Origin: a virus
Taxonomy: Duplodnaviria > Heunggongvirae > Uroviricota > Caudoviricetes
Length of the DNA: 22,388 nt
Direction: 5' to 3' (one strand)
IMG/VR virus record: IMGVR_UViG_2778261036_000014
Part shown: positions 3-21,469 of the stretch, piece after piece
Position numbering within the stretch: the stretch's first letter is position 1
How the letters are laid out: each line of letters opens with the position of its first letter
Position numbers and translations under genes: made by a program
Notes under the pieces: generated by a model
What the model saw: the letters and a program-made list of their open reading frames with translations, nothing else
The model's database searches: none
Told to the model about the DNA's origin: nothing

Positions 3-1103
<1,101 letters not shown>

Positions 1104-1123
1104 TAGAATGAGTTTTTAAGCGC

Positions 1124-1861
1124 TCATTCACTCTCTTTCAAACCAGTTTTAACTGTTTGTGGTTTTGGGTAAGGCTGGACTTTGAATAGCTTTGTGTTGA
1201 GGCGTTTTCTGGCCCTCTTGTTCAGAAACCGGATGTAACGAAACTGTCGGAACTTATGCACACTGGCTCTGTCGATATTAGCCCTCAGATGTTCACCTCG
1301 TTGTCCGCCTCGTTTAATGGCATTCCTGCAAATCTCGTGATACCACTCGCCATCAAGTTCATAGAATGTTGATTCATGGCTGCCTACATAATCAAAATTG
1401 CTTGCCTGATACACGACACCAAGACAGCCACAACGCTCATCTGCAAACGACTGAACCCACTGTACCTGCGGATAAAGCTGCCTGATTAGCTTGAGCGCGT
1501 AACTGATTGCCCTTGATTCGGAGTTTCTCGGCATACAGTCATGCATCCATAGCCGGTTAAGCTCCATATATTCTCGGTTCTGCGTACCCGTTACGACGCG
1601 TGCACCACTGTTTGGGTTAAGGGCGTAACCCCATTGCATTACGCCAACAAGTTCCCGTTCTGAAAATATACCCAGATGAAGGTAGGAATTATTTACGAAA
1701 CGGTGGCTGTAATGTTTATTGACGATAACCAGTCTGGCCAGCCAGCAACTTATTGTCTCAACCCGCAACTCACGGGAGCCATAACCAACGATATTGTCGT
1801 TATAGCGAATAAGTTCAGGCGTGCTGATGATACGGGATGTGACTTGCTTTCTGTTCCCCAC
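1124..1861 (-). CDS. mom: Mom-family DNA adenine modification protein (anti-restriction)
   Basis: 245-aa ORF as the last gene before the prophage end, overlapping the 3' end of a Com-like zinc-finger gene, as in Mu. Apparent start is GTG at 1861 and is uncertain. Confidence 0.75.
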
Positions 1862-2015
1862 GACAGGATTTCCTTGTGTATGTGGGGTGCTCTGTGGCGC
1901 TCGGAGATGTGATTTGATTGAGGGTTTTACTGCGCGGACATTTTACTTCCAGATAACTGAAACTGGCCCGTGCCAGTAGCTTATTGCAGTGTCGGCACCG
2001 TATGTTTCGATACAT
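1815..2015 (-). CDS. com: Com-like zinc-finger translational activator of mom
   Basis: ATG at 2013-2015 preceded by AGGAGG about 8 nt upstream. Product [29 protein letters not shown]... resembles Mu Com (RCKNCNKLL...IRCPRCK, from memory). Overlaps the mom start by about 47 nt. The ORF-track start at 2060 is a TTG and is not used here. Confidence 0.7.
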
Positions 2016-2205
2016 GACCGCATAACCTCCTGCTTTGTTGTTGATGCCTTTCTCATGCAATCGATCGACAAAAACGATCGATTCGATTTGTTTAATTGAT
2101 ACAACAAATAGATTGAAAAGTCATCAACAATGATTCAGGGAGGTGATTATTTACTTAAAGAAAACGAAGAGTTAGGTGGTGAAAACGATCATAAAATGAT
2201 CATTT
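2016..2205 (-). promoter_or_regulatory. com-mom upstream control region with clustered GATC (Dam) sites
   Basis: GATC at 2063, 2076, 2187 and 2198; the first two sit in the palindromic stretch aatCGATCGacaaaaaCGATCGatt roughly 50-65 bp upstream of the com ATG. Mu mom transcription is known to be controlled by Dam methylation of upstream GATC sites. Confidence 0.4.
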
Positions 2206-2267
2206 TATTGACTTTTTATACAGTGAAGGTAGGATCACGCGTATATGTAGTATGTTTCAAATCAACA

Positions 2268-2314
2268 GGATACTACATAAAAGTGAAACCCAGCATAGCT
2301 GGAACTATGCTGGG
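2268..2314 (-). terminator. Putative rho-independent terminator (minus strand) upstream of the com-mom control region
   Basis: Perfect 10-bp stem CCCAGCATAG / CTATGCTGGG with a 6-nt loop (2289-2314), followed on the minus strand by UUUCACUUUUAUG. On the plus strand it is not followed by a U-run. Confidence 0.45.
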
Positions 2315-2426
2315 TCAATCTGTAAAAACTTGCATCAATGCTTTACTTCGAGCTCGTGGCGTATCCTATGATATTCCCCGGTCTCCTGTAAAGCAGAGAT
2401 GCATAAAAAGGAGATCTTTATCATGG

Positions 2427-2594
2427 ATGAAAGAGCCTGTTTGCCCTGCCTGTAAGACTCCCTTACAGCTCATCTATCGCCGTTCTCGATCTCAAAATGG
2501 CAAGACATACAAACCCAAAAATGCTTCCTGTTTCAGGATGCTGATATGTCCTGCCTGTTCTCCCAGGAGGGAAAATACACAAAACGTGCATTAA
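2427..2594 (+). CDS. Hypothetical small zinc-ribbon protein (two CPAC motifs); reading frame is open from 2130 so the true start is uncertain
   Basis: AAGGAG at 2408-2413, 13 nt before the ATG at 2427. Product MKEPVCPACKTPLQLIYRRSRSQNGKTYKPKNASCFRMLICPACS... has CPAC-x27-CPAC. A possible sigma70 promoter (TTGACT 2208-2213, 16 bp, TAGGAT 2230-2235) lies upstream. The 5' part of the long ORF is AT-rich and may be non-coding. Confidence 0.35.
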   Translation: MKEPVCPACKTPLQLIYRRSRSQNGKTYKPKNASCFRMLICPACSPRRENTQNVH

Positions 2595-2603
2595 CAAACT
2601 CAC

Positions 2604-2623
2604 CCGGCAGGGAAACCTGCCGG
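2604..2623. terminator. Bidirectional hairpin between convergent small genes
   Basis: Perfect 8-bp stem CCGGCAGG / CCTGCCGG with a GAAA loop, lying between the stop of the plus-strand ORF (2592-2594) and the stop of the minus-strand 81-aa ORF (2633-2635). Moderately U-rich tails on both strands. Confidence 0.45.
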
Positions 2624-2632
2624 TCGGTATTG

Positions 2633-2878
2633 TTACATCATAGTACCGTCAGTTCCGGGCTGAACCGGCTCTGGTTGCTCTACGGGTTGAGGATCATTTT
2701 CCGTGCTGTTTTCAGCCGGAGAACGGCCAACCATTCGGGCCAGCACTTCATCAACATATGCGTCGATTTGTGCCTCAAAATCCTTGCGAACCTGCGCCTT
2801 CAGCACGCGGTTCACTTCTTCAGAATAAAGTGCCTGTTTGACAAGCTCTTCAGTAACCGTGCCTTTAATCTCTGGCAT
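2633..2878 (-). CDS. Hypothetical 81-aa acidic protein with predicted helical N-half and Pro/Glu-rich C-tail
   Basis: AAAGGAGA about 7 nt upstream of the ATG; hairpin immediately after the stop. No family recognised. Confidence 0.55.
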   Translation of the reverse strand: MPEIKGTVTEELVKQALYSEEVNRVLKAQVRKDFEAQIDAYVDEVLARMVGRSPAENSTENDPQPVEQPEPVQPGTDGTMM

Positions 2879-2913
2879 GAATATTCTCCTTTTGCAGGTA
2901 TATTGCCCCGTTA

Positions 2914-3096
2914 TCAGAGCGGGGTCGGGTCGTTTGGGGATGACGGTGCCTGTGCTGTTTTACTGAGTTTTTCAGCTGCCGCATCATCAATTTTACGGCG
3001 AATATAATTTCTGATGACCTTATAACCACCGCTCACCAGATATAACGCACTGACCACAGCGCAGAAATAAAGCAGCATTGTATGAACGAATGTCAT
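2914..3096 (-). CDS. Hypothetical 60-aa protein with one N-terminal hydrophobic (transmembrane-like) segment and a basic tail
   Basis: AAGGTAAGG a few nt upstream of the ATG. Hydrophobic stretch MLLYFCAVVSALYLVSGGY followed by KVIRNYIRRKIDD. Sits 35 nt upstream of the 81-aa ORF on the same strand, so probably a two-gene operon. Confidence 0.5.
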   Translation of the reverse strand: MTFVHTMLLYFCAVVSALYLVSGGYKVIRNYIRRKIDDAAAEKLSKTAQAPSSPNDPTPL

Positions 3097-3164
3097 ATAA
3101 CCTTACCTTTGATATTGACTACATAATTCGTTATCGGGTAAAAACATCGAAGCGACTGATAACC

Positions 3165-3245
3165 ACTCCTTCGGGAGTATTTTTATTTTCCTTTATGGGT
3201 TAGGTAGCTCCCGCCAGCCATATCATGACCGGCGGGATTTTTTTA
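3165..3245 (+). terminator. Two tandem plus-strand intrinsic terminator-like hairpins immediately 3' of the nanS-like gene
   Basis: ACTCC-TTCG-GGAGT followed by ATTTTTATTTTCC (3165-3191), and CCCGCCAG...CCGGCGGG followed by ATTTTTTTA (3210-3245). Both have T-runs only on the plus strand, yet no convincing plus-strand gene lies upstream. Confidence 0.4.
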
Positions 3246-5282
3246 TTCTGTTACCGCTTTTTTCACTTCCACCACAATGCTGTCAATCAGCACCGGGTAA
3301 GTTGCATTTTTTGTGATATCCGTTACGCGGAGTTTGTCCACCGGGAAAGTTCCTACTGGTGACTGCGTCAGGGTAAACGCGGCACCATCCTGACCATCAA
3401 TAACCGGAATAACCTGAAGGCTGTTATTTCCTGCAAAACGGAAGGCCAGCGTATGCCATTCATTATCAAATGCACCAAAGGTTCCCAGTTTCTGGTTATT
3501 TGTTGCCACTTTTGCATTGTGGTACATCACATTCAGGTCTTTTGCGTCTGTCTGGATGTAGAACGATGCCAGCAGATTATTCCCTGCATCCCCTGTCAGG
3601 GTGACACCCTGCGGCAGAGAGGAAACCGGCCAGTAAAGCCCCATGACATACTGGTTTGCCACCAGGTCGCCAGGTACTTTAAAACGACAACTGATTAAAC
3701 CACCATTTTTCAGCAGTTCAGCACCAGTACCGGCATCATGATCCAGATACCAAGATGATTTACCTGTTTCCTTGGTCAGTTTCATTGCCTTACCACCTGT
3801 GCCTCCTGCATCACTGATAATTTCAGCTTTACCGCCAGCCGGCTCCCAGCCCTGGGCTTTCAGATTTCCTTCTGACTCACTGACACGATAAGACAGCAGT
3901 GTTGTGGTTACTGCTTCAGTTTCTGAAGGTGACGGCACTGGTGCTTCAGTTTCAGAAGATGGAACATCGGCTTTTACTGTGGTTCGCCCCGCATGAGTCA
4001 GAACTGCCGTGGCCAGACGGTCGGAAATAATCCCACGACGTGCCCATGAACTGAAATGGCTGGCCCGGTCCGCAGATGTCCAGGTGGCGGCACTGTTACG
4101 CCACGTTGAGCCGTAATAACCAATGGATTCAATATCCGGGTCTTCTGCCGGATTGTTGGTGGGTACATTCGCGTCATTTTCATCTGTCATTAATGGAACG
4201 AAATGAATGTTTTTATCTGTTTTGTTTTTGTAGCCGCCATAGATTGCCTGGTATGCCGGTTCATTTTTCTGTTTCCAGAAATACGTGGTATCGCCACAAA
4301 TCCACGGAACGCCAGCAGCACTGCCACCGGTACACTGTTCCGCCTGTTCAGCCAGGTCTGCGCGGAATTTTTCCACCATCGCCAGAAACAGCGCGGAATG
4401 CTCCGTCGGCTTCGCATCAATATCAAACTCGCCCTGCATCCACACCACAGCAAGCAGGCGGTTTTTCGGGTTCTTCGCCAGTGCCGCTTTTGTCCGGCTG
4501 ATTAAGTCCTTATACAGCGGCTTATCCACACCCCAGCGGGCTGAGTCCTCTGAAGCACCCGTGCTGTCACTGTACGTGCCGTCAGCACCCGCCGTGAATG
4601 CAGAACCACCACGGCAGCAGGGAACCAGCAGAATCCCCGCATCTGCCGGAATAAACGGCAGCAGTTTTTTGGCAATGTGAAGCCCCTGACCCACGGTGCC
4701 ATATTGCCCTTTAGCCACATCCGCTTTCGGGTGATTTTTTCCACTCATATCCTGCACATCATGCAGACAGTGGTCGGCCAGAATGATGTCGTTATACTGA
4801 CAGGCTTTACCTCCCGGCGTGACTGTACTGCGACGGGCTAACTGCATAATACGCGGTTCGGGGCGGTCATATGTCTCCGGCAGTGGCAGACCTTCACCGT
4901 AAGCCATACCGTTTGACTGACCAGCAAGAACCACCACGTAATACCAGGAAGGGGAGCTGGAAGCAGTTTCATTTCCTGACGGACGGGTATGTGTTTCAGC
5001 ATTATCCCAGTCTGACGGTTCAGCAGTACCGGCAACATCAGCACTTAACGGAATGACCGCACCAATACCCGCTCCGGTAATTTCCACACTCGGATCACCG
5101 GATACTGGCCTTACCCACAGGCAATCCCGTGTATTAAAACTGATGAGACAGTCAGCAAATGTCATTCCTCCTTTTGTTTCGGCCGGAGGAAAGGGAGCCT
5201 CAAGAAATGCCGCTGTACCACCGGAAACTTTAACAGTAAAGTTTCCGGGCATTGATGATAGTTGAACCCATTTGGACGTCAT
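3243..5282 (-). CDS. nanS: NanS-like sialate (9-O-acetyl-N-acetylneuraminate) O-acetylesterase, prophage-encoded NanS-p type, with extra N- and C-terminal regions
   Basis: Central region YYVVVLAGQSNGMAYGEGLPLPETYDRPEPRIMQLARRS...ILLVPCCRGGSAFTAG...WMQGEFD...WICGDTTYFWK...HFSSWARRGIISDRL closely matches my recollection of E. coli NanS (YjhS) and the GQSN motif of SGNH/SASA esterases. About 115 aa precede and about 250 aa follow the esterase core. AGGAACAGG lies upstream of the ATG. Confidence 0.8.
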   Translation of the reverse strand: MTSKWVQLSSMPGNFTVKVSGGTAAFLEAPFPPAETKGGMTFADCLISFNTRDCLWVRPVSGDPSVEITGAGIGAVIPLSADVAGTAEPSDWDNAETHTRPSGNETASSSPSWYYVVVLAGQSNGMAYGEGLPLPETYDRPEPRIMQLARRSTVTPGGKACQYNDIILADHCLHDVQDMSGKNHPKADVAKGQYGTVGQGLHIAKKLLPFIPADAGILLVPCCRGGSAFTAGADGTYSDSTGASEDSARWGVDKPLYKDLISRTKAALAKNPKNRLLAVVWMQGEFDIDAKPTEHSALFLAMVEKFRADLAEQAEQCTGGSAAGVPWICGDTTYFWKQKNEPAYQAIYGGYKNKTDKNIHFVPLMTDENDANVPTNNPAEDPDIESIGYYGSTWRNSAATWTSADRASHFSSWARRGIISDRLATAVLTHAGRTTVKADVPSSETEAPVPSPSETEAVTTTLLSYRVSESEGNLKAQGWEPAGGKAEIISDAGGTGGKAMKLTKETGKSSWYLDHDAGTGAELLKNGGLISCRFKVPGDLVANQYVMGLYWPVSSLPQGVTLTGDAGNNLLASFYIQTDAKDLNVMYHNAKVATNNQKLGTFGAFDNEWHTLAFRFAGNNSLQVIPVIDGQDGAAFTLTQSPVGTFPVDKLRVTDITKNATYPVLIDSIVVEVKKAVTE

Positions 5283-5381
5283 AATAATCAGCCTGTTCCT
5301 GAATAAACTGAATTATCATATCCACAGACCGATAAACGCCATTTTGCGTTAATTCAGTAAAGGCCCAACAAAGGGAGCGTC

Positions 5382-5942
5382 TTATTTTTCCGAAACGCTC
5401 GCAGGATAATAACGATAAAGGGTTGAAAGGCCGATATCAAAAATAAGTGCCACCTGTCTTCGACTGACACCCCCGGCCAGTAAACGCCCGACCTGCTCGT
5501 ATTGTTCCTGCGTGAGACGACGGGGTCTGCCGCCGGTTCGTCCCCTTTCACGGGCAGCTGCAAGACCAGCCCGTGTCCGTTCGACAATTAATTCACGCTC
5601 CATTTCTGCCAGCGCACCCATTATGTGAAAAAAGAAGCGCCCCATGGGGGTTGACGTATCAATGTTGTCAGTAAGACTACGAAAATTTATCCCCTGTTGC
5701 TGTAATTCATCTGTCAGCGCAACAAGGTGGCGCATACTGCGCCCCAGCCTGTCCAGTTTCCAGACCATCAGTGTGTCACCGGGTTTTAGTTTCTTCAGTG
5801 CCCGCTTCAGTCCCGGCCGCTGTGTCGTTTTACCACTCATTTTATCTTCAAAAATCTGCTCACATCCTGCACATTCCAGCGCATTTCTTTGTAAACCTGT
5901 GTTCTGGTCATTTGTTGATACGCGTATATAGCCAATCAGCAT
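5382..5942 (-). CDS. pin: Serine-recombinase DNA invertase of the Pin/Gin/Hin/Cin family
   Basis: Product MLIGYIRVSTNDQNTGLQRNALECAGCEQIFEDKMSG...WKLDRLGRSM...GINFRSLTDNIDTSTPMGRFFFHIMGALAEMERELIVERT is near-identical in pattern to e14 Pin / Mu Gin as I recall them. AGGAAGG lies about 8 nt upstream of the ATG. Sits directly adjacent to a gix-like site. Confidence 0.9.
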   Translation of the reverse strand: MLIGYIRVSTNDQNTGLQRNALECAGCEQIFEDKMSGKTTQRPGLKRALKKLKPGDTLMVWKLDRLGRSMRHLVALTDELQQQGINFRSLTDNIDTSTPMGRFFFHIMGALAEMERELIVERTRAGLAAARERGRTGGRPRRLTQEQYEQVGRLLAGGVSRRQVALIFDIGLSTLYRYYPASVSEK

Positions 5943-5996
5943 GTATTTACCTTCCTTAAAAAGAGGTGGAAAGGCCTTTTAAAGCAGATATACGGC

Positions 5997-6022
5997 ATCC
6001 CTGAAACCTCGGTTTACGGGAT
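5997..6022. other. gix/pix-like invertase crossover site A (pin-proximal)
   Basis: ATCCCTGAAACC-TC-GGTTTACGGGAT; its reverse complement ATCCCGTAAACC-GA-GGTTTCAGGGAT resembles the Mu gix sequence TTCCTGTAAACC-GA-GGTTTTGGATAA (recalled). In inverted orientation relative to site B. Confidence 0.6.
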
Positions 6023-6367
6023 ACTGTAAACAGGGCCGCGAATGCCCTGCCATCGAACGGAGCGGCTGTTGCAGCGAATAAACTCGCCACTCCAAGAAAT
6101 ATTAATGGTGTCCCATTTGACGGAACGCAGGATATAAATATTACATCGGGGATGACGCAGTCTGTGGCTGACTCACGTTATGTTCAAAGCATTCGAAGAG
6201 GTTCAAGGTCAACGATTGGAATGCAATATAATATTTTTGAGGTTCCTGACGGATGCGTACTTACAGGGCTTGATGTCGCTGGTGATGGTAATGCAACGGT
6301 AACCGCATATTATCGACCTGTTCAGTTTCTGATAGATGGTTCGTGGAAAACAGCTTCCAGCGCATAA
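6011..6367 (+). CDS. Promoterless alternative tail-fibre C-terminal cassette (Sv'-like); would be fused in frame to the constant part of the tail fibre after inversion
   Basis: Frame open from 6005: NLGLRDTVNRAANALPSNGAAVAANKLATPRNINGVPFDGTQDINITSGMTQSVADSRYVQ...YYRPVQFLIDGSWKTASSA. The N-terminal ~50 residues parallel residues ~180-230 of the expressed tail fibre, while the downstream part diverges. No start codon or RBS at its 5' end. Confidence 0.6.
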   Translation, partial: GLRDTVNRAANALPSNGAAVAANKLATPRNINGVPFDGTQDINITSGMTQSVADSRYVQSIRRGSRSTIGMQYNIFEVPDGCVLTGLDVAGDGNATVTAYYRPVQFLIDGSWKTASSA

Positions 6368-6446
6368 AAGTGCAGTAGTTCAAAAAACAGATTATCTGAA
6401 TAAATATATGATGATTTTGTCTTTTCAACAAAAACAAGGTGAAATA

Positions 6447-6968
6447 ATGGAGCTTATTAACGTAAAACGATATTACCCGGAACACAAACCCTATGGTGAG
6501 GATGTTCAGTATTTCCAGAGTGAGGACGGAAGGGATTTTTATGAATCTATCCCGCTTTTCACAAAGAAATACAAACTCTGTATTTCGCCTGTAACGGGTA
6601 TTATCTGCTCTGTTGCTGAAGATGTCTCTGCTTTATATCCGGCAGGTTTTACTGTTGTTGAAGTGGACGAACTGCCGGAAGGTGTGAATATTGACGGTAA
6701 CTGGCAGTTTTCTGATGGCCTGATATCAAAGGTGCCGGTAAACTGGAAGACGGTTGCTGAAAAGCGCCGCTCATCGCTGCTCCAGGAAGCCAACGAAACT
6801 GTGGATGACTGGAAAACGGAATTAAAACTGGACATGATTAGCGATGAAAATAAATTACAGCTGACGCGCTGGATGGCGTATATCCGACAGCTTAAAGAAA
6901 TGCACTTTAATGATATTGCCAGTGAGGGGCATTACCAGGCGATTCCCTGGCCGGAAAAACCGGAATAA
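6447..6968 (+). CDS. Tail fibre assembly protein (Tfa/U-like chaperone) belonging to the silent cassette
   Basis: AAGGTGA before the ATG at 6447; about 173 aa, typical Tfa size; lies 80 bp downstream of the Sv' cassette inside the invertible segment; followed by a hairpin terminator. Confidence 0.75.
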   Translation: MELINVKRYYPEHKPYGEDVQYFQSEDGRDFYESIPLFTKKYKLCISPVTGIICSVAEDVSALYPAGFTVVEVDELPEGVNIDGNWQFSDGLISKVPVNWKTVAEKRRSSLLQEANETVDDWKTELKLDMISDENKLQLTRWMAYIRQLKEMHFNDIASEGHYQAIPWPEKPE

Positions 6969-6973
6969 TTCAG

Positions 6974-6996
6974 AGGGTGCATTCAGCACCCTTTTC
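6974..6996. terminator. Hairpin terminator between the convergent tfa and tail-fibre genes
   Basis: 7-bp stem AGGGTGC / GCACCCT with a 5-nt loop followed by TTTT on the plus strand; weaker U-tail on the minus strand. Confidence 0.5.
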
Positions 6997-7002
6997 TGTG
7001 GT

Positions 7003-7914
7003 TTACACTGAACTTACCGTTCTCCAGGCATTATTAATATAAATCTGAACCGGGCGATAATAGACCCCACCGATATTGTCCGCAGACCGGGAGCCGGTTT
7101 CCTGCACGTTAATTCCGGAAAGCATACAACCGGAAGGTGCGCTGTAATTCCATGACATTTCATTGCCTCCGGGTGAATGATAGCTCTGTGCTCCAAGCTG
7201 AACATTCTGTACATACCGGCCATCTGCGGTTGACTGCGTCATTCCTGACGTGATGTTGATATCCAGCGTTCCGTCAAAAGGAACACCATTAATATTTCTT
7301 GGGGTGGCGAGTCTGTTTGCTGCCACGGCGGTTCCACCCGATGGCAGGGCATCAGCAGCCTTATTTACCGTTTCCCGTAAACCGACGTTATCGATAAAAG
7401 CGCCTTTATCCGGAATGTCTGCGCCGTTCTGCTCCCTGCGCAGGTAACGGTTATCACCTTCGCTTTTGCTGTAAACATCCAGATTATTACGGGCGGTTCC
7501 CGCATTCTCCAGGTCGGCAAGGTTCTGATCCTTCGCCAGAGCATTAACGTCACCGGGACCAAGACTGTTTTTTGTGGCAAGCGCCCCAAGACCAAGATAA
7601 CCACGGGCAAGACGCTGGGCTTCCGCACCGGCATCAGCAATTTCTTTCAGGTTGTTTTTCCGGGAAAAGGCATTCGCAGCGATAATGGCTTTAATGGACA
7701 GCGTAAGCTGGTTTAACTGCGCCTTATCCGGCTGAATACTGGCTTCAGCCAGAATATTCAGCAGTTCGGCCTGGAGAATATTCAGCCAGTCCTGACCAAT
7801 CCAGCTGATACCTTTTTGTCCGTCACCTTCGGTAAACCAGGTGGTGGTATTACTCTGCGCCGGTGCCAGCGCAGGCATATTCGCCACGCCGGAATTATTA
7901 TCAACATGGAACAT
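7003..7914 (-). CDS. Tail fibre protein, currently expressed form (constant part ~7914-7398 plus variable C-terminal part ~7384-7003)
   Basis: ATG at 7912-7914 overlaps the upstream gene stop (TAATG) with GAAGAGGAG upstream. The C-terminus ...GGVYYRPVQIYINNAWRTVSSV resembles the C-terminal motif of P2 H / Mu S tail fibres as I recall them. A gix-like site lies inside the gene. Confidence 0.75.
   Translation of the reverse strand: MFHVDNNSGVANMPALAPAQSNTTTWFTEGDGQKGISWIGQDWLNILQAELLNILAEASIQPDKAQLNQLTLSIKAIIAANAFSRKNNLKEIADAGAEAQRLARGYLGLGALATKNSLGPGDVNALAKDQNLADLENAGTARNNLDVYSKSEGDNRYLRREQNGADIPDKGAFIDNVGLRETVNKAADALPSGGTAVAANRLATPRNINGVPFDGTLDINITSGMTQSTADGRYVQNVQLGAQSYHSPGGNEMSWNYSAPSGCMLSGINVQETGSRSADNIGGVYYRPVQIYINNAWRTVSSV
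7372..7397. other. gix/pix-like invertase crossover site B (within the tail-fibre gene)
   Basis: TTCCCGTAAACC-GA-CGTTATCGATAA; the left half matches the recalled Mu gix half-site TTCCTGTAAACC at 11 of 12 positions and the central dinucleotide is GA. Confidence 0.65.
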
Positions 7915-8474: not shown

Positions 8475-9550
8475 GTGATTTCCCCCACGGTCAGCAACTC
8501 TGTATCTCCGGCCATCACGGACTTCAGCGGGCTGCGAACTTCAAAATCCTCCAGTCCTTTCACCCCTGCAACAGCCCGCCAGAATGATGAAGGCAATACA
8601 AGTCCACCCGGCCGCGATTCGTTATAAAGCAGGTCTGTTAATGCCTGTTTTACGGCAGCCTGATTTTCCGGCGTTTTGGGTACAATCCTGATCTCAAACG
8701 CCACCGGCTTATTGGTCAGCTTAAACACGCTGATTGTCGGCCCAAGTGGCTGACCAACGGGCTGGCCCGTCGCCGGATCATCATGACTGCGGATATAATC
8801 CGCCACCCGCTTCACATCACCTTCTCCGGGGAAAATGTCAGGGTTATTATCCTGAACAAAAGTCACACCAACACTACCCGCCTCAGGCCATTCAGGCTTA
8901 CACCATGCCCGCGTCACGCCCGGTACTTCCCGTGCCCAGCGTTCAAAATCATACTGTGTTCCCCCTGATGGCGGGTTCTGTACCCGGAATACCAGCCTGG
9001 ACAGCAACTCCGGCACCGTTTCCACATCCGCACCACCGGTGAGTCCCGTGCCGGTGACCGTGGCTGTCTGGTTGATGCCCGCCTGTGGCGTGATAAAGGA
9101 CAGGCGGGTTCCGGTCGGGGTATTTCCAGCGCGCCCCGCACTTTCCGCCTCCACATTAACATTCAGTGTTCCGGCTTTTCCGGTCGCAGAGCCGGTGATG
9201 CGGTACACAACCCCATCGCTTCGCTGAAGGAGTACGCCTTCCGTGATCCCTGCATCCGTGGTCAGCATCAGTTGTACCGGTCCGTCAGCGCGGGAAGCCG
9301 GTTTACGGATGACACCCCAGAATGCGCAGTGTTTCAGGAGTTCGGCTTCATCAGCTTCTGTCGGAATTATCTGCCGGGAGATCCAGGCCAGATGTTCATG
9401 CTCCTGTGCTGACAGACCCGCCAGTGCATACGCAATGGCATTCAGGGTGGTTTCATTCACGCCCGGCTGCGAACCGGGCAGGCGCTGGCTGATATCCTGT
9501 TGTGTCTGTGTGATCAGTTGCGCCAGTGGTAAGGGCTGATAAGGCATCAT
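8465..9550 (-). CDS. Baseplate J-like protein (Mu gp47-like)
   Basis: 361 aa; position and size as in Mu; ATGA overlap with the upstream gene. Confidence 0.7.
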   Translation of the reverse strand: MMPYQPLPLAQLITQTQQDISQRLPGSQPGVNETTLNAIAYALAGLSAQEHEHLAWISRQIIPTEADEAELLKHCAFWGVIRKPASRADGPVQLMLTTDAGITEGVLLQRSDGVVYRITGSATGKAGTLNVNVEAESAGRAGNTPTGTRLSFITPQAGINQTATVTGTGLTGGADVETVPELLSRLVFRVQNPPSGGTQYDFERWAREVPGVTRAWCKPEWPEAGSVGVTFVQDNNPDIFPGEGDVKRVADYIRSHDDPATGQPVGQPLGPTISVFKLTNKPVAFEIRIVPKTPENQAAVKQALTDLLYNESRPGGLVLPSSFWRAVAGVKGLEDFEVRSPLKSVMAGDTELLTVGEITWL

Positions 9551-9984
9551 TCCCCCTTCATATCAGCATAAAAAATCATCGGATGTCTGCTTCCGTCCGG
9601 CAGGGTGATTTTCACGGAAAGCGAAAGGCGAGCATGCCCCACACGCATGGCATGACATACCACGGATGTGGCAGCACCGCTTTTATGCAGCCACGCCAGC
9701 GCTTCATCAGCATAGGCCTGTGCACGGCTGACCACGGAGGACAGCGTCTTTTCACGGCTTAACAGCCAGAGACGGGAGCCAACGGGGCGCTCCCGGAAAC
9801 TGTCTCCCCACCATCCCCGACGGTCACGGGTGCCGTCAGGGATTTCATCGGAATCCAGCGCCCGCCTGTCCGTAAACAGTGAAATAATGACCGCAGTCAG
9901 CAGGCTGTTATCCGTCAGAAGATCTGCGCCGTTCAGTTGCAGGGAACCGCAACCCTGATCCCAGACGACAGCAATATCAGCCAT
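9547..9984 (-). CDS. Baseplate wedge protein (Mu gp46 / GPW-gp25-like)
   Basis: Internal ATG at 9982-9984 (MADIAVVWDQ...) overlaps the stop of the upstream gene; about 145 aa as expected for this family. The longer ORF-track start at 10197 would overlap the upstream gene extensively. Confidence 0.65.
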   Translation of the reverse strand: MADIAVVWDQGCGSLQLNGADLLTDNSLLTAVIISLFTDRRALDSDEIPDGTRDRRGWWGDSFRERPVGSRLWLLSREKTLSSVVSRAQAYADEALAWLHKSGAATSVVCHAMRVGHARLSLSVKITLPDGSRHPMIFYADMKGE

Positions 9985-10591
9985 TCTCTGGTCCTCCCGT
10001 TTTGCTGCCTTCACCGTTATCGTGATGCACATGACCTGAATAGGTGATCCCGGCAATAACCGCTTCGGACATCGTGAACGTCCCCTGTGATCTTCCGGTG
10101 CCGTCAATGGACACATTGCCTTTGACATGCAGGTTCTTATCCACTGTGACATTACCGGTAAAGTGAGCCTCCGGTGTATCCACCTGAACACCTTCATCGG
10201 CGTAAATCTCCAGCGTCTTACAGGTCACAATGATCCGGCCGTTCTTTGTCAGACGTATACGGTGCCCCTCATGGTGATACACGCCGGTATCTCCGGCGGT
10301 AAGTCCGGTCGGGCGACTGCGGCGGTCTTCCACCACAAGCACCACGGCCTGATCCCGTTGTCCGCCAGCACAGGCCAGAAAAACTTCCGCACCAGGCAGG
10401 GGGACGCTGATTTGCCCGTACTGCTGGGGGCGTTCAACGTCATCAAAGGTTTCACCATCCATACCGGTGATTTGCACATTCTGGATTTTCAGCGTGTCCG
10501 TTGTGCCGGTCAGTACACCACGCCCGAACAGCAGACGAACACCCCGCATCACGGGGGCCAGAAGGCGGCTGATGACTTCGTCATTCATCAT
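9977..10591 (-). CDS. Baseplate assembly/spike protein (Mu gp45 / gpV-like)
   Basis: 204 aa with Gly-rich C-terminal region; position as in Mu. Confidence 0.65.
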   Translation of the reverse strand: MMNDEVISRLLAPVMRGVRLLFGRGVLTGTTDTLKIQNVQITGMDGETFDDVERPQQYGQISVPLPGAEVFLACAGGQRDQAVVLVVEDRRSRPTGLTAGDTGVYHHEGHRIRLTKNGRIIVTCKTLEIYADEGVQVDTPEAHFTGNVTVDKNLHVKGNVSIDGTGRSQGTFTMSEAVIAGITYSGHVHHDNGEGSKTGGPENG

Positions 10592-11705
10592 TGAATTTAA
10601 TCCCCTGTTTTTTCATCTGTGCCCGCACGAAGGCGTCCACGTCACCCGCATTTCCGCTTCCGCTGTTTCCCGGCTCTGCCGGAACAATAAAGCCGTCACG
10701 GGGTGCCAGAATCAGACGGGTGGTTTCGCCGTGATTTGCATCCAGCGAAAACTCCACCTGACAGACAAGAAGATCACGCTCTTCCACTCCGGTGCGGGGA
10801 GCCGTGACAGCCGTCAGCAGGTTGATATCCCACAACTGGCCGTTCTCCCGAAACCAGTGCCGCACGGTGGCTGTCAGGCGCACAGAGCGGGCAACCGCCC
10901 GGCGCATTTCCCGGACAGCCCTCTGGCGTGCACCGTCTGCATCAACAGCATGATCCGCCAGCACAATTTTCGGTCTGTAACGGTGGATGGCACTGTCTGT
11001 CACCGTACCAACGGGTGCGGCCAGCGTTCCGGCTGTCAGTGCATCCCCGGCATGACCACCACCACGCCCGTGCCCCCGTACACGGTATTCACTGTGGCGC
11101 AGACGGTGATCCACGTTGTGATCCAAATCCAGCAGATTTTCGCCCAGCGTCAGCGTGTCGCCACGCTGACTGCCGGCCTGAGTGAAAACCAGTTCACCGG
11201 CGGCATTACTGGTTACCAGGACGCCTCTGTGTCTCGCGGCCCGTGTCAGCGCATCTGCCACGGTTTCTGAGTTTTCCAGTGTGAAGGTGGAAAAGGGCCG
11301 GGCTGCCGTTGCATCATTTACCTGCCAGCGCACCGTGACCCCGAACGGAGCACACAAATCTGAAGCAATGTGCTCCAGCGTGCGGTTCCTCCACTGGCTG
11401 CCCGGATGAATGGCTGAACAGTCCACCAGGTCACCGGTTTTATCCCGTCCGCTGAGCGTGATCTGAAAACGCGTGGCGCTGATGCGCTGCCGGACCTGAT
11501 CCAGCCAGCCAGTGATCACAGGCTGACCGTCAATGCGCAATTCCAGAGACTGACCGGCACGGACGGATGACGGAAGGCGTACACCGGGCATCATTACCCC
11601 CAGTTCAAAGGAGCCCGCCAGATGTTCAAGAGAGCGACGAACACTCACCGTCAGCCAGCCGGAAAAAATCTCACCGCCCAGATACAGTTCAACCCTGCTG
11701 CTCAC
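10581..11705 (-). CDS. Mu P-like baseplate hub / late-control-D-like protein (gp44)
   Basis: 374 aa; size and position parallel Mu P. Confidence 0.65.
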   Translation of the reverse strand: MSSRVELYLGGEIFSGWLTVSVRRSLEHLAGSFELGVMMPGVRLPSSVRAGQSLELRIDGQPVITGWLDQVRQRISATRFQITLSGRDKTGDLVDCSAIHPGSQWRNRTLEHIASDLCAPFGVTVRWQVNDATAARPFSTFTLENSETVADALTRAARHRGVLVTSNAAGELVFTQAGSQRGDTLTLGENLLDLDHNVDHRLRHSEYRVRGHGRGGGHAGDALTAGTLAAPVGTVTDSAIHRYRPKIVLADHAVDADGARQRAVREMRRAVARSVRLTATVRHWFRENGQLWDINLLTAVTAPRTGVEERDLLVCQVEFSLDANHGETTRLILAPRDGFIVPAEPGNSGSGNAGDVDAFVRAQMKKQGIKFNDE

Positions 11706-13059
11706 TAATCACCTCCACTGAATGGCCTCCGGGAATGAACAGCGGATCAACAATACCGTTACGGCGCACAAAACGTTGCCAGCCGGTACTGTTCCCGGTG
11801 GCACGGTACAGGGTCACCAGTGCAGGCTCGGTGGTACGTACAGTCACTACTGTTGCACCGGGTAGCTGAACTCCCCGTGTATTCAGATCCTCTGTCAGTG
11901 CCAGTCTGGCATCACGAAGCGTCAGCGCCGTGGCGGTATACCCCTGCCCGGACAGTGTCATCACCTGCCGTTCGAGCGCTTCGCTTAAGTCACGGTTAAT
12001 GCGCTGAAGATCAACTGAACTTTCCAGCCAGACAGGCCAGGTACGGTGGGCTGCGTCACTGTCCGGCAGGGTTTCCTGACTGAGAACCTGATCCAGCAGT
12101 TTTCCCACGGTCTGTGCCTGGGCCACCACGGCAGCACTCTGCATTACCGCCCGTATCAGACGAATATTCTTTTGTGCTGCCGGTGTCAGACCGATGAGAG
12201 TCTGCGGATTATCCTGCTCATCCAGCACGTAACGCAGGGAAGATAATGTCCTGTACAGTTGCGGCATTCCCTGAGAGAAGGCGGATGTCGTCCGGCCGAT
12301 ACTGCCACCGGGCCGGGTATTCAGGCCTCCTGAAGACAGTGACGGCAGCGATGGCAGGGTGATCAGGGCACTGAAAAGCCCCGCAAAAGATGAGGCCATG
12401 CGGGAAGGTGCTGTCAGTAATGCCGTGGCATTCCCTTTCAGCGCCGTGAACGTGGCAGTAAAGGCACTGATATCCTGTACAATCCCCATGCCGGAAACGG
12501 CATTTTCCAGGGCGGACACCTTATCGCTGATGGTTTCGGTCATTGCCTGGACATCGTGCATTCCGTCAGAAATCACCGTCCAGCCCGCTTCCAGGGTTTC
12601 AAAAACCTTCCCGAGCGCGGTGGTACTCTTCTGCTCCAGAATGGCGGCCGTGTCCTGTGTGACAGCAGGTGCGGTATCATCACTTACCGGCGTGACATTA
12701 ATGGTGAACTCAACCACGCCCTGTTCAGCAGCGTTATAACGACTTTCAAAGCTGTTTATCAGCACATTTAACGTGCCGTAATCCGGGTGAAGCAGCTCCC
12801 CGGCACCGGGAGCACGAAGGGCATCACGCAGACGATTTCGCTGTGTCTGAACATCATCCCCCATCACAAGTACACTGAACGTAAATTCAGCCAGTTTAGG
12901 TCCCAGATCGTCTGCACCACCGGTTTCCCGTAACGGATATTCCCGACGGACAATGTTTCGCCCGCCACGTTCGCGCTGCTCACGCCAGACGAGGAACGGC
13001 ACACCACGGAACGCACCACGACCGTCACCAGAGGCCATAATTCCCTCCGTTCCAGACAT
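11689..13059 (-). CDS. Mu N-like DNA circularisation protein (gp43)
   Basis: 456 aa immediately downstream of the tape measure gene, as in Mu. Start could be 13059 or the internal Met at 13038. Confidence 0.65.
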   Translation of the reverse strand: MSGTEGIMASGDGRGAFRGVPFLVWREQRERGGRNIVRREYPLRETGGADDLGPKLAEFTFSVLVMGDDVQTQRNRLRDALRAPGAGELLHPDYGTLNVLINSFESRYNAAEQGVVEFTINVTPVSDDTAPAVTQDTAAILEQKSTTALGKVFETLEAGWTVISDGMHDVQAMTETISDKVSALENAVSGMGIVQDISAFTATFTALKGNATALLTAPSRMASSFAGLFSALITLPSLPSLSSGGLNTRPGGSIGRTTSAFSQGMPQLYRTLSSLRYVLDEQDNPQTLIGLTPAAQKNIRLIRAVMQSAAVVAQAQTVGKLLDQVLSQETLPDSDAAHRTWPVWLESSVDLQRINRDLSEALERQVMTLSGQGYTATALTLRDARLALTEDLNTRGVQLPGATVVTVRTTEPALVTLYRATGNSTGWQRFVRRNGIVDPLFIPGGHSVEVISEQQG

Positions 13060-15100: not shown

Positions 15101-15102
15101 AC

Positions 15103-15285
15103 TTACTGCTTCGTTCTGATGATTTTTTCTGTCTGTCGGCAGTGCCGGTAAAGTTGCGACAGGGGGAGGTTAAGCGCCCATTCCGGACCGCTTTTTGTCA
15201 CCATCCCCAGGATAATTGCCGCTTCTTCAATCTGATCCCGACACTGCGCCTGATCGCCCCCGGTCAGCTGCCAGCTTTCCGGCAA
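15103..15285 (-). CDS. Open frame overlapping the 3' end of the chaperone-like gene in the +1 frame and ending 2 nt before the tape measure ATG; possible frameshift extension
   Basis: No ATG start (ORF track begins at a TTG); overlap of about 58 nt with the upstream gene; stop TAA at 15103-15105 and tape measure ATG at 15098-15100. Confidence 0.3.
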   Translation of the reverse strand: MPESWQLTGGDQAQCRDQIEEAAIILGMVTKSGPEWALNLPLSQLYRHCRQTEKIIRTKQ

Positions 15286-15721
15286 GCGCGGTATCCAGCA
15301 GGCTGACCGCTGCCATCAGGCGGGAGAGATCGCGCTCGCTTAACTGTCCAATCTGACGGGGTGACAACGGACCTTCAATGTCTCCCACTGCGGCAATCTG
15401 ACGGCGCAGCAGTGCAACACCGCGTAACGACGGAGACGCTATCAGCATCGGGCCATTGTTTGTCTCCACCACGCGCTCGGCTTCTGCTTCTGCGTCAATA
15501 CTGTCTTTCGCTGTCAGTTCCCGGAACGTGACACGATATTCACGGGTCTCACCAAACGGCAGACCATCAAGCAGATCCACATATCCCTTTGCCAGTTGCT
15601 CTGTCAGCCCGGCAGTGCGTGGATCAGCCCCCTCAAGTGCTTCCCGGATTGCCTCCATCACGGCTGCCTCGGAAACTGCCGTTTTTTTCTTACGTGTGGT
15701 CATTTTATTTTTCCTGATCAC
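15227..15721 (-). CDS. Mu gp41-like protein, probable tail assembly chaperone
   Basis: 164 aa located between the tail tube and tape measure genes; ATGA overlap with the tube gene stop. Confidence 0.55.
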   Translation of the reverse strand: MIRKNKMTTRKKKTAVSEAAVMEAIREALEGADPRTAGLTEQLAKGYVDLLDGLPFGETREYRVTFRELTAKDSIDAEAEAERVVETNNGPMLIASPSLRGVALLRRQIAAVGDIEGPLSPRQIGQLSERDLSRLMAAVSLLDTALAGKLAADRGRSGAVSGSD

Positions 15722-16083
15722 TGAACACGGGTACTGGAGGCGCTGGCGAACTTCACGGAGATCTCCCCGCCACCGTCAAGCGAGGCCGGTTCACTGCTCC
15801 AGGCCTTCGTCATCATGTGGACTTCGCCGGTATCCGCCACAAACTCGATAGTGACCGCAGTCCAGTTGTTGATTTCATCGGCGGCTGGTGAACCTTCTCC
15901 GCCTGCCGGAAATTTGCAGTCCAGCGTCGCTTCACGTGGTTTCTGGCGGTAACCATAGACTTTCGCGCCTTTCACCACTTCACGTTCAAAACCAGACGGA
16001 GAAAATGTAGCCCCCTCAAGCGTCTCGTATTCCTGACCGTTCACACGGATAGTGGCCGTACCCTGATACTGTTTTCCGCTCAT
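15718..16083 (-). CDS. M: Tail tube protein (Mu M-like)
   Basis: 121 aa directly downstream of the sheath gene; size and position as in Mu M. Confidence 0.75.
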   Translation of the reverse strand: MSGKQYQGTATIRVNGQEYETLEGATFSPSGFEREVVKGAKVYGYRQKPREATLDCKFPAGGEGSPAADEINNWTAVTIEFVADTGEVHMMTKAWSSEPASLDGGGEISVKFASASSTRVQ

Positions 16084-16091
16084 GCCTTACC

Positions 16092-19178: not shown

Positions 19179-19221
19179 ATTTGCCCTCCGCAGGGGCCGG
19201 GCCGTAAGCCCGGCTCACCGT

Positions 19222-21461: not shown

Positions 21462-21469
21462 TTAAACAA

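What the first reader, a model, noticed from the sequence alone, without database searches (positions are those of the whole stretch)
3243..5282. NanS-like sialate O-acetylesterase carried as cargo in a Mu-like prophage, with extra terminal domains
The esterase core matches E. coli NanS as I recall it. Prophage NanS-p genes are known to me from lambdoid Stx phages of EHEC, where they sit in the late region. Here the gene lies between the invertase and com-mom of a Mu-like element, where canonical Mu has no gene. The ~115-aa N-terminal and ~250-aa C-terminal extensions are unassigned; the C-terminal one may be a carbohydrate-binding module.
Basis: partly seen in the sequence, partly recalled or inferred. 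Interest (0 to 1): 0.6.

Follow-up and report, generated by a model that had tools for sequence, protein, structure and literature searches.

The report
Mu-like prophage sialate esterase, swapped N-domain
This gene encodes a well-known type of phage-borne enzyme that strips acetyl groups from gut-mucus sialic acids, but it sits in a transposable Mu-like prophage of Shiga-toxin E. coli and has a different small N-terminal domain where lambdoid-phage versions have their capsid-binding domain.

Summary
Window 5282..3243 (minus strand) is an intact 679-aa ORF between the Gin invertase and Com/Mom of a Mu-like (Sakai Sp18-type) prophage.

- **Esterase (aa 113-435):** a NanS-type SGNH/SASA esterase. 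It matches PDB 3PT5 at E 2e-118, and the catalytic Ser123 and His409 are kept.
- **C-terminal domain (aa 459-674):** this is not unassigned. It is the lectin-like jelly-roll domain of NanS-p (DUF6645, PDB 6YP6, E 1e-111). All four proposed sugar-binding aromatic residues are kept.
- **Overall identity:** from aa 113 on, the protein is about 80% identical to Stx-phage NanS-p.
- **Downstream genes:** DUF1378 and DUF826 follow, in the order seen in lambdoid late regions.
- **N-terminus (the real difference):** DUF1737 is absent. Instead there is an ~80-aa all-beta domain plus a disordered linker. I found this domain only in Mu-like prophages of E. coli/Shigella and Salmonella, always fused to the esterase.
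- **Selection and shuffling:** the N-domain is under purifying selection. It is joined at the linker to at least four different esterase/C-domain alleles.

The gene is 100% identical in at least 30 listed complete STEC genomes (152 records at ≥99%), so it is not a new sequence. It is an architectural variant of NanS-p that I did not find described in the papers I could search. A 2026 preprint shows that DUF1737 anchors NanS-p to the phi24B capsid, which makes a virion-anchor role for this N-domain testable. Interest is moderate.

The parts
3243..5282 (-). Complete gene for a 679-aa NanS-p-type sialate O-acetylesterase. RefSeq calls it WP_010917876.1, 'DUF6645 domain-containing protein'.
   Evidence: ORF. 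Pfam SASA and DUF6645. PDB 3PT5 and 6YP6. All 30 listed complete E. coli genomes are 100% identical, and 152 records are at >=99%.
5043..5282 (-). N-terminal domain, aa 1-80: a small all-beta domain that is not DUF1737 and was found only in Mu-like prophages.
   Evidence: No Pfam or NCBIfam hit. The AF2 model has six strands with pLDDT 72-86. hhalign against DUF1737 gives probability 0.3%. There is a weak match to phrog_4772. Homologues occur only in Mu-like contexts. dN/dS is about 0.10 against the class B allele.
4947..5042 (-). Linker 1, aa 81-112: predicted disordered, rich in Ser/Thr/Pro, ending in ASSSP just before the esterase. It is a recombination breakpoint between alleles.
   Evidence: pLDDT is below 50 for aa 80-109. 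DNA and protein homology to lambdoid NanS-p starts at aa ~113 (window 4944). Breakpoints fall at or within the linker in L008/L018 and L021.
3978..4946 (-). SGNH/SASA catalytic domain, aa 113-435. It contains GQS123N (block I), GGS (block II), WMQGE (block III) and RASH409 (His block).
   Evidence: 3PT5 alignment, in which native NanS Ser19 aligns to S123 and His301 to H409. It is 81-82% identical to the Stx-phage NanS-p esterase domain with dN/dS 0.10. Motifs are located.
3909..3977 (-). Linker 2, aa 436-458: a variable Ser/Pro/Glu/Thr-rich stretch between the esterase and the C-terminal domain.
   Evidence: It is 35% identical to lambdoid alleles while the flanking domains are 78-82% identical. 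Sequence.
3246..3908 (-). C-terminal lectin-like jelly-roll domain, aa 459-679 (DUF6645), the proposed carbohydrate-binding module.
   Evidence: 6YP6 match at E 1e-111 and Pfam DUF6645. The aromatic residues Y510, Y515, Y540 and F611 of vb_24B_21 are conserved here as Y545, Y550, Y575 and F646 (residues named in PMC10462455).
2914..3096 (-). DUF1378 small protein (60 aa), co-oriented and directly downstream of the esterase gene.
   Evidence: Pfam DUF1378, E 1.2e-38. The same gene follows NanS-p in the Stx1-converting phage late region. It is present in all Mu-like loci that extend far enough.
2633..2878 (-). DUF826 small protein (81 aa), the last gene of the co-oriented block.
   Evidence: Pfam DUF826, E 2.8e-15. 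PMC10462455 notes DUF826/DUF1378 ORFs between nanS-p and S in Stx2a phages. Conserved in Mu-like loci.
2130..2594 (+). Opposite-strand ORF of 154 aa (phrog_26524, function unknown, Cys-rich C-terminus) inside the gin-com insert. It is variable or frameshifted in other genomes.
   Evidence: Annotated as hypothetical in L002 and as frameshifted in L008 and L009.
5382..5942 (-). Gin-type serine invertase, directly upstream and co-oriented, 99 bp from the esterase start.
   Evidence: Pfam Resolvase and HTH_7. Matches Mu gin.
1124..2015 (-). com (about 2015..1815) and mom (1861..1124), the right-end genes of the Mu-like prophage.
   Evidence: Pfam Zn_ribbon_Com and Mom. RefSeq boundaries taken from L002.
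63..1000 (+). Fragment of a lambda-type tail tip gene J (profile positions 490-802 of 1163), cut by the end of the Mu-like prophage at about 992-1000.
   Evidence: NCBIfam lambda_TipJ and Pfam Ig_J. Sequence. Mu-side matches in other genomes begin at window ~975-995 next to many different host genes.

Best explanation

Shown here:
- The central SGNH/SASA domain (aa 113-435) is a close homologue of E. coli NanS. It keeps the nucleophile Ser123 (GQSN) and His409 (RASH).
- The C-terminal domain (aa 459-679) is the lectin-like jelly-roll of NanS-p, with its four proposed sugar-binding aromatic residues intact.
- The gene is followed by DUF1378 and DUF826, as in lambdoid late regions. Esterase, C-domain and small ORFs therefore share ancestry with the lambdoid nanS-p block.
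- The N-terminal 80 aa are a different, all-beta domain joined through a disordered ~30-aa linker. This domain occurs only in Mu-like prophages, is under purifying selection, and is recombined at the linker with at least four divergent esterase/C-domain alleles.

Inferred from published work on NanS and NanS-p:
- The enzyme removes 9-O-acetyl groups from Neu5,9Ac2 on free or mucin-bound sialic acid. This makes the sugar usable through the host nan pathway.
- The lectin domain targets the enzyme to glycans.
- The protein has no signal peptide, so it most likely reaches its substrate when cells lyse.

Inferred more weakly:
- The N-domain is the Mu-lineage counterpart of DUF1737, which is a stand-alone-type phage domain that tethers the enzyme to a phage structure.
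- Transcription comes by read-through from gin or the late tail operon, because the genes are co-oriented and I saw no terminator between gin and the esterase gene.
For: - **ORF and domains:**
- **Similarity to lambdoid NanS-p:** the protein is 73% identical to two Stx-phage NanS-p proteins overall. It is about 81% identical in the esterase and 78% in the C-domain, with dN/dS 0.10-0.13.
- **Key residues:** the catalytic Ser and His and the aromatic residues of the binding site are conserved.
- **Synteny:** DUF1378 and DUF826 follow in the same order as in an Stx1 phage.
- **Mu-like context:**
- **Occurrence:** the same gene is 100% identical in at least 30 listed complete E. coli genomes (152 records at ≥99%), at many different chromosomal sites. 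These include the described Mu-like prophage Phi804-3 of FRIK804. The N-domain DNA is present in 205 of 5426 genomes.
- **N-domain is real and coding:**
  - The only ATG codons upstream of the catalytic Ser are M1, M11 and M40, so some extension must be translated.
  - Against the class B allele there are 6 synonymous and 2 non-synonymous differences.
  - Homologues 59% and 29% identical keep the reading frame and the fusion to GQSN.
  - The AF2 beta fold has pLDDT 72-86.
- **N-domain is specific to the Mu lineage:** all 34 IMG/VR loci and the Salmonella locus have it downstream of Gin in a Mu-type tail/baseplate context. In the GenBank phage collection it occurs only in two records that carry an inserted Mu-like phage.
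- **Published enzymology:** esterase activity of NanS-p alleles on Neu5,9Ac2 and mucin O-glycans, and the growth advantage it gives, are summarised in PMC8065619.
Against: - No experiment exists for this allele. Esterase activity, substrate and expression are all inferred from homologues 70-80% identical.
- The promoter scan found nothing above chance, so it is unknown how or when the gene is transcribed. Sp18 is reported as not inducible by mitomycin C (PMC2669165).
- Alleles whose N-domains are only 59% identical sit on backbones that are 92-99% identical. That would be unexpected if the N-domain had to fit a nearly invariant virion protein. Block recombination that includes gin could also explain it.
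Confidence: 0.85

Rival explanations
1. The protein is primarily a virion component. The N-terminal beta domain would anchor the esterase and lectin module to the Mu-like capsid or tail, as DUF1737 anchors gp84 to central hexons of phage phi24B. The particle would then carry a mucin-binding, de-O-acetylating decoration, possibly released by cleavage at the SSSP linker.
For: - The phi24B preprint shows NanS-p/gp84 is a capsid decoration protein bound through DUF1737. It is processed in its linkers near SSP motifs (10.64898/2026.04.10.717836).
- Here DUF1737 is replaced precisely at the linker by a domain found only in Mu-like phages.
- That domain stays constant while the enzyme modules are exchanged.
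- It resembles a PHROG of ~79-aa stand-alone phage proteins. This parallels DUF1737, which is mostly stand-alone according to the preprint.
- The linker ends in SSSP.
- The gene is co-oriented with, and directly follows, the tail-fibre/gin block.
Against: - There are no virion proteomics or structures for any Sp18-type phage.
- Fold matches carry no information on function.
- N-domains that are 59% identical occur on backbones 92-99% identical.
- The gene lies outside the head and tail operons, in the accessory right end.
Confidence: 0.3
2. The enzyme acts on bacterial rather than host glycans. It would remove O-acetyl groups from capsule (for example O-acetylated polysialic acid) or O-antigen, either to help the phage adsorb or to remodel the lysogen surface.
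For: This possibility is raised for NanS-p in the review PMC8065619. The gene sits next to the host-range (tail fibre / invertible segment) module.
Against: - The catalytic domain is closest to NanS, whose demonstrated substrate is Neu5,9Ac2.
- The characterised NanS-p alleles act on sialic acid and mucin glycans.
- STEC hosts of this prophage are not known, to my knowledge, for sialic acid capsules.
- No tail-attachment domain was detected.
Confidence: 0.08
3. The N-terminal 112 aa are an annotation artefact or a fusion scar with no function. On this view the working protein is only the esterase plus the lectin domain, or the whole gene is a decaying relic.
For: - The Shine-Dalgarno sequence before ATG 5282 is weak.
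- A few loci carry truncated copies of 318, 499 or 523 aa.
- Word-indexed protein searches return only partial entries.
Against: - The only ATG codons upstream of catalytic Ser123 are M1, M11 and M40.
- The frame and the fusion are kept in homologues down to 29% identity, in another genus.
- dN/dS is about 0.1.
- A confident beta fold is predicted.
- 29 of the 32 IMG/VR copies that contain the whole gene are full length.
- The gene is 100% identical in all 30 listed complete genomes, with 152 records at >=99%.
Confidence: 0.04

Closest known systems
NanS-p of lambdoid Stx phages (933W L0105/933Wp42, phi24B vb_24B_21/gp84, EDL933 z1466 and paralogues)
   Same: - The SGNH/SASA esterase domain is about 81% identical and the DUF6645 lectin-like C-terminal domain about 78% identical.
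- The catalytic blocks and the aromatic residues of the binding site are the same.
- The three-part layout with flexible linkers is the same.
- DUF1378 and DUF826 lie downstream in both.

   Different: - The N-terminal domain is not DUF1737 (hhalign probability 0.3%). It is an unrelated ~80-aa all-beta domain, whereas DUF1737 is described as one helix plus three strands.
- The carrier is a transposable Mu-like myovirus rather than a lambdoid phage.
- The gene lies between gin and com/mom, not downstream of Q-stx and upstream of the lysis genes.
Chromosomal NanS (YjhS) of E. coli, PDB 3PT5
   Same: Homologous catalytic domain over its whole length (E 1.9e-118), with equivalent Ser and His.
   Different: NanS is a single-domain protein of about 326 aa, encoded with nanC and nanM in the chromosomal sialic acid regulon (PMC3658417). 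[quoted passage not shown]
Sp18 of E. coli O157:H7 Sakai and related Mu-like prophages (for example Phi804-3 of FRIK804, and Mu-like phages inserted in Stx phages of CC119)
   Same: This window is such a prophage. The backbone and right end are the same, the esterase gene is 100% identical, and insertion sites vary, including inside other prophages.
   Different: The papers on these prophages that I could search do not mention the esterase gene or its domain structure. The insertion into a lambda-type J gene seen here is not shared by any complete genome in the collection.
Bacteriophage Mu (AF083977)
   Same: The order S/U tail fibre - invertible segment - gin - com - mom and the Mu-type head and tail genes are the same.
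   Different: Mu has 94 bp between gin and com. This prophage has a 3.3-kb insert holding the esterase, DUF1378, DUF826 and an opposite-strand ORF.

Membership tests
NanS-p (prophage-borne sialate O-acetylesterase) | SGNH/SASA catalytic domain homologous to E. coli NanS | tested here: met
   Pfam SASA, E 6.5e-12. 3PT5 match, E 1.9e-118, over aa 104-428.
NanS-p (prophage-borne sialate O-acetylesterase) | Catalytic Ser in the GQSN block and His in the R-x-S-H block, plus blocks II and III as in NanS | tested here: met
   S123 and H409 align to NanS Ser19 and His301. GQSN, GGS, WMQGE and RASH are located. They are kept in all Mu-type allele classes. Block definitions come from PMC10462455.
NanS-p (prophage-borne sialate O-acetylesterase) | C-terminal lectin-like jelly-roll domain (DUF6645, PDB 6YP6) with aromatic residues Y510, Y515, Y540 and F611 | tested here: met
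   The residues map to Y545, Y550, Y575 and F646.
NanS-p (prophage-borne sialate O-acetylesterase) | N-terminal DUF1737 domain | tested here: not met
   Pfam finds DUF1737 in the phage 1717 protein but not here. The alignment shows no similarity before aa 113. hhalign probability is 0.3%.
NanS-p (prophage-borne sialate O-acetylesterase) | Location in the late region of a lambdoid prophage (downstream of Q/stx, upstream of the lysis genes) | tested here: not met
   The gene lies between gin and com/mom of a Mu-like prophage. Only the downstream DUF1378/DUF826 synteny is retained.
NanS-p (prophage-borne sialate O-acetylesterase) | Esterase activity on Neu5,9Ac2 and O-acetylated mucin glycans | not testable with these tools
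   This needs a biochemical assay. Activity is published only for lambdoid alleles (PMC8065619).
Chromosomal NanS (YjhS) | Single-domain protein of about 326 aa encoded in the nanCMS sialoregulon operon | tested here: not met
   The protein is 679 aa with three domains and lies in a prophage.
Mu-like transposable prophage (Sp18 type) | Mu-type structural genes, a Gin invertase with an invertible tail-fibre segment, Com/Mom at the right end, and variable insertion sites | tested here: met
   Insertion next to many different host genes is seen in other genomes. The transposase end lies outside the window.
Capsid decoration protein of the phi24B gp84 type | N-terminal domain that binds capsid hexons, with the protein present in virions | not testable with these tools
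   The DUF1737 anchor is absent. Whether the replacement domain binds a virion cannot be decided from sequence, and fold searches were uninformative.

The most novel reading that the evidence does not exclude
The ~80-aa N-terminal beta domain would be a previously unrecognised virion-anchoring adaptor specific to Mu-like myoviruses. NanS-p esterases would then be modular 'plug-in' decorations: the same mucin-targeting enzyme and lectin cassette mounted on unrelated phage particles (lambdoid podoviruses through DUF1737, Mu-like myoviruses through this domain) by swapping the N-terminal anchor at a flexible linker. On this reading the gene serves the phage particle in mucus as much as it serves the lysogen's nutrition.
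Probability: 0.25. Interest if true: 0.65.

Novelty: new variant of a known kind. Interest (0 to 1): 0.4.

Why it matters
NanS-p esterases are thought to help Shiga-toxin-producing E. coli feed on O-acetylated sialic acids of gut mucus. STEC genomes carry several copies, with a median of 3 nanS-p-like places per positive genome.

This allele adds a copy that travels on a transposing Mu-like phage rather than a lambdoid one. It is present in about 4% of complete E. coli genomes (205 of 5426), most of the listed ones STEC. Copy-number surveys that define NanS-p by DUF1737 or by Stx-phage context will miss it.

The clean replacement of DUF1737 by a Mu-lineage-specific domain matters because DUF1737 has recently been reported as the capsid-binding domain of phi24B gp84. 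Together with the shuffling of enzyme cassettes behind a constant N-domain, this gives a simple and testable model for how one enzyme cassette is adapted to different phage particles. If the N-domain turns out to have no structural role, the finding is just one more NanS-p paralogue.

Tried and rejected
- **Signal peptide or periplasmic targeting in the N-extension.** Rejected by eye: the first 30 residues (MTSKWVQLSSMPGNFTVKVSGGTAAFLEAP) have no hydrophobic core. No predictor was run.
- **Remote DUF1737 homology.** Rejected (hhalign probability 0.3%).
- **Naming the N-domain by fold.**
  - Foldseek against BFVD gave unnamed phage proteins of about 90 aa, with E above 0.001.
  - No function could be drawn from either.
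- **Exhaustive phmmer of the N-domain against 1.84 billion representatives.** It returned 5 hits. All were fragments of the same fusion, except a 1445-aa repeat protein (P0005) that looks like a compositional match.
- **Scan of the GTDB species-representative genomes with N-domain patterns.** Nothing was confirmed.
- **Rfam scan of the whole window.** No hit.
- **Sigma-70 promoter scan of 1000-6400.** Fewer sites than in shuffled sequence, so no promoter is assigned.
- **Local alignment of the Mu gin-com intergenic region to both ends of the insert.** No significant similarity, so exact insertion boundaries relative to Mu could not be drawn.
- **Literature.**
  - No paper in the searchable library combines NanS-p, or O-acetylesterase in E. 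coli, with Mu-like phages.
  - Saile et al. 2016 (PMC5038053) is not held.
  - Franke et al. 2020 and Rangel et al. 2016 did not appear in my searches and were not read.
  - A mention in those papers therefore cannot be excluded.
- **Steps not run.** I did not use the third large protein search or the second structure job. A full-length model would not have decided any open question.
Full report
**1. The observation**

Window 5282..3243 on the minus strand is an uninterrupted ATG-initiated ORF of 679 aa.
- Pfam assigns a SASA sialate acetylesterase domain (aa 116-312) and DUF6645 (aa 524-642).
- NCBIfam has no model for the protein.
- A sequence search of the PDB gives E. coli NanS/YjhS (3PT5) over aa 104-428 at E 1.9e-118. 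It also gives a chain named NanS-p (6YP6) over aa 459-674 at E 1e-111.

**2. The context**

Directly upstream, co-oriented and 99 bp away, lies a Gin-type serine invertase (5942..5382). Downstream lie four further genes:
- DUF1378 (3096..2914);
- DUF826 (2878..2633);
- an opposite-strand 154-aa ORF (2130..2594);
- Com and Mom (about 2015..1124).

The rest of the window encodes Mu-type proteins: gp48, baseplate J, gp45, GpP, DNA_circ_N, tape measure, sheath, the major head protein gpT and protease I. A 182-nt inverted repeat (6005-6186 / 7208-7389) brackets an alternative tail-fibre tip and a chaperone, as in the Mu G segment.

In phage Mu itself, gin and com are separated by 94 bp that hold Pmom. 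Here the interval is 3.3 kb.

At the left edge of the window, a lambda-type tail-tip gene J (profile positions 490-802 of 1163) is cut off at about 992-1000 by the prophage end. This copy of the Mu-like phage has therefore transposed into another prophage. The same behaviour is documented for Sp18-like phages in STEC CC119 (PMC10132054) and in two GenBank Stx-phage records.

**3. How common the gene is**

- The gene is 100% identical in all 30 complete E. coli genomes listed, and 152 records match at ≥99%. RefSeq names it 'DUF6645 domain-containing protein', WP_010917876.1.
- The N-terminal segment is found in 205 of 5426 genomes, with 1-4 copies per genome.
- Flanking host genes differ from genome to genome: frvX, cas7e, garP, phnM, ypdA and others. 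This fits transposition.
- One of the identical copies lies inside the published Mu-like prophage Phi804-3 of FRIK804.
- Sp18 of Sakai is described as an apparently intact Mu-like prophage that is not induced by mitomycin C (PMC2669165).

This is therefore a sequence that has been in the databases for years.

**4. Anatomy of the protein**

Alignment with NanS-p of Stx2 phage 1717 and of an Stx1 phage shows 73% overall identity. By domain the figures are as follows:

| Region | Identity to lambdoid NanS-p | dN/dS |
|---|---|---|
| Esterase domain | 81-82% | 0.10 |
| C-terminal domain | 78% | 0.12-0.13 |
| Before aa 113 | no similarity | n/a |

DNA similarity to about 300 Stx-phage records likewise starts at window 4944 (aa 113) and ends at the stop codon.

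The catalytic residues are in place. The 3PT5 alignment puts native NanS Ser19 on Ser123 (GQSN) and His301 on His409 (RASH). The GGS and WMQGE blocks are also present. These are the blocks described for NanS and NanS-p in PMC10462455.

The C-terminal domain is the one crystallised from phi24B vb_24B_21. It is described as a lectin-like jelly-roll and a probable carbohydrate-binding module (Franke et al. 2020, as cited in PMC8065619 and PMC10462455). Its four proposed binding-site aromatic residues (Y510, Y515, Y540, F611) are conserved here as Y545, Y550, Y575 and F646.

**5. The N-terminal extension is the real difference**

Canonical NanS-p begins with DUF1737. Pfam finds that domain in the 1717 protein but not here. 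A profile-profile comparison gives a probability of 0.3%.

The first 80 residues are predicted, from a shallow alignment, to form a six-stranded all-beta domain (pLDDT 72-86). A disordered linker (aa 80-109) follows and ends in ASSSP just before the esterase. DUF1737, by contrast, is described as one helix plus three strands.

Several results show that the extension is coding:
- The only ATG codons upstream of catalytic Ser123 are M1, M11 and M40.
- Against a second allele there are 6 synonymous and 2 non-synonymous changes in 80 codons.
- Homologues 59% and 29% identical keep both the frame and the fusion to GQSN.

The only family-level lead is phrog_4772, a PHROG of ~79-aa phage proteins of unknown function. 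The Salmonella copy matches it over its whole length at E 6.8e-6, and the window copy at E 6e-3.

**6. Distribution of the N-domain**

- An exhaustive phmmer search of 1.84 billion representative proteins found only fragments of the same fusion, plus one probable compositional hit.
- Word-indexed searches found E. coli, Shigella sonnei and Salmonella enterica entries.
- The Salmonella copy lies at a contig end, downstream of an invertase, in a clearly Mu-type baseplate and tail-fibre region.
- In IMG/VR, all 34 loci found show the same order: gp47 - gp48 - tail fibre - Gin - [N-domain - esterase - DUF6645] - DUF1378 - DUF826 - (ORF154) - Com - Mom.
- 29 of the 32 copies that contain the whole gene are full length.
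- In the GenBank phage collection the N-domain occurs only in the two Stx-phage records that carry an inserted Mu-like phage.

I found no case of this domain in a lambdoid late region.

**7. Modular exchange**

At least four allele classes exist on backbones that are 92-100% identical in gp47, gp48 and Mom. Identities below are relative to the window protein.

| Class | Example loci | N-domain | Esterase | C-domain | Other |
|---|---|---|---|---|---|
| A | window | 100% | 100% | 100% | n/a |
| B | L008, L018-L020 | 98% | 67% | 40% | n/a |
| B' | L021 | 99% | 69% | 47% | breakpoint inside the linker |
| C | L022-L043 | 59% | 70% | 72% | Gin 81% |

All classes keep the Ser, Gly, QGE and His blocks. 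The flexible linker is thus a recombination joint. Behind a constant N-domain the enzyme cassette is exchanged, and in class C the whole gin-to-DUF826 block has been exchanged.

**8. What it most likely does**

By homology, the protein is a sialate 9-O-acetylesterase with an attached lectin-like targeting domain. Lambdoid NanS-p alleles have been shown to de-O-acetylate Neu5,9Ac2 and mucin glycans and to support growth on Neu5,9Ac2 (summarised in PMC8065619). That is the best-supported function here. With no signal peptide visible, release by lysis is the likely route to the substrate.

What the N-domain does is open. A 2026 preprint shows that phi24B gp84 (a NanS-p) is a capsid decoration protein. 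It is held on central hexons by DUF1737 and is processed in its linkers.

The following observations make an anchor role plausible:
- DUF1737 is replaced exactly at the linker by a domain specific to the Mu lineage.
- That domain stays constant while the enzyme cassettes change.
- It resembles a family of small stand-alone phage proteins.
- The linker ends in an SSSP motif.

Three points count against it. N-domains only 59% identical occur on nearly identical backbones. The gene sits in the accessory right end rather than in the head or tail operons. No virion data exist. I put this reading at roughly 0.25-0.3.

**9. Comparison with what is known, and novelty**

The protein works like NanS-p. 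It meets the family's catalytic and C-terminal criteria. It fails two features of the described family: the DUF1737 N-terminus and the lambdoid late-region location.

I found no paper in the searchable library that links NanS-p or an O-acetylesterase to Mu-like phages of E. coli. The papers on Sp18-like phages that I read do not mention the gene. Key subscription papers (Saile 2016, Rangel 2016, Franke 2020) could not be read, so an earlier mention cannot be excluded.

I rate it a new variant of a known kind. The enzyme and the prophage are ordinary. The N-terminal domain swap and its lineage specificity are the new points.

**10. Verdict**

Interest is moderate (0.4). The enzymology is expected, but the domain swap gives a direct test of whether NanS-p cassettes are fitted to different virions through exchangeable N-terminal anchors.

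Noticed in passing
window 63-1000 (+), junction at about 992-1000: A lambda-type tail-tip gene J (profile positions 490-802 of 1163) is truncated by the end of the Mu-like prophage, so the Mu-like phage has transposed into another, lambdoid prophage. No complete E. coli genome in the collection shares this junction.
   Followed up: partly
window 2696-7526 compared with 8690-22388: GATC is strongly depleted across the accessory and host-range region (esterase block, gin, invertible segment). There are 2 sites in about 4.8 kb, against 68 sites in about 13.7 kb of the structural genes. No local statistics were run and the cause is unknown. By contrast, GATC sites cluster just upstream of com (2063, 2076, 2187, 2198, 2233). 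This recalls, from my own knowledge, the Dam-regulated Pmom region of Mu.
   Followed up: no
window 3165-3178 and about 3210-3244 (+ strand): Two terminator-like hairpins followed by T-runs face the + strand, antisense to the esterase operon, in the 147-bp gap between DUF1378 and the esterase stop codon. The second overlaps the stop codon. The first was reported by the scan. The second I read from the sequence. They would stop + strand transcription, for example from ORF154, from entering the esterase gene antisense.
   Followed up: no
window 2130-2594 (+): A 154-aa opposite-strand ORF lies in the insert. It matches phrog_26524 (unknown function) and has a Cys-rich, zinc-ribbon-like C-terminus (CPAC...CPAC). 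It is annotated as frameshifted in two other genomes and is only partly present in many IMG/VR loci.
   Followed up: partly
window 6005-6186 and 7208-7389: A 182-nt inverted repeat (79% complementary) brackets about 1 kb that carries an alternative tail-fibre C-terminus (6152..6367 +) and a tail-fibre assembly gene (6336..6968 +). This is a G-segment-like invertible host-range switch next to gin.
   Followed up: partly
L005 9426-9910 (Salmonella enterica GCA_037428405.1): In the Salmonella Mu-like prophage, two extra small ORFs lie between the invertase and the N-domain-esterase gene. One is a 58-aa protein with a hydrophobic C-terminus and the other an 87-aa protein. The esterase gene runs off the contig end, so its C-terminal architecture is unknown.
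   Followed up: no
L012, L025 and L037 (IMG/VR loci): Three of the Mu-type esterase genes are truncated, at 523, 499 and 318 aa. The cause (frameshift or insertion) was not examined.
   Followed up: no
P0005 (1445-aa protein from the representative library): A large protein built of about 9 tandem repeats matched aa 53-103 of the N-terminal region at E 1.7e-8 (35% identity). It looks like a compositional match (Gly/Ala/Val/Thr/Pro-rich), but a true beta-repeat relationship was not excluded.
   Followed up: no
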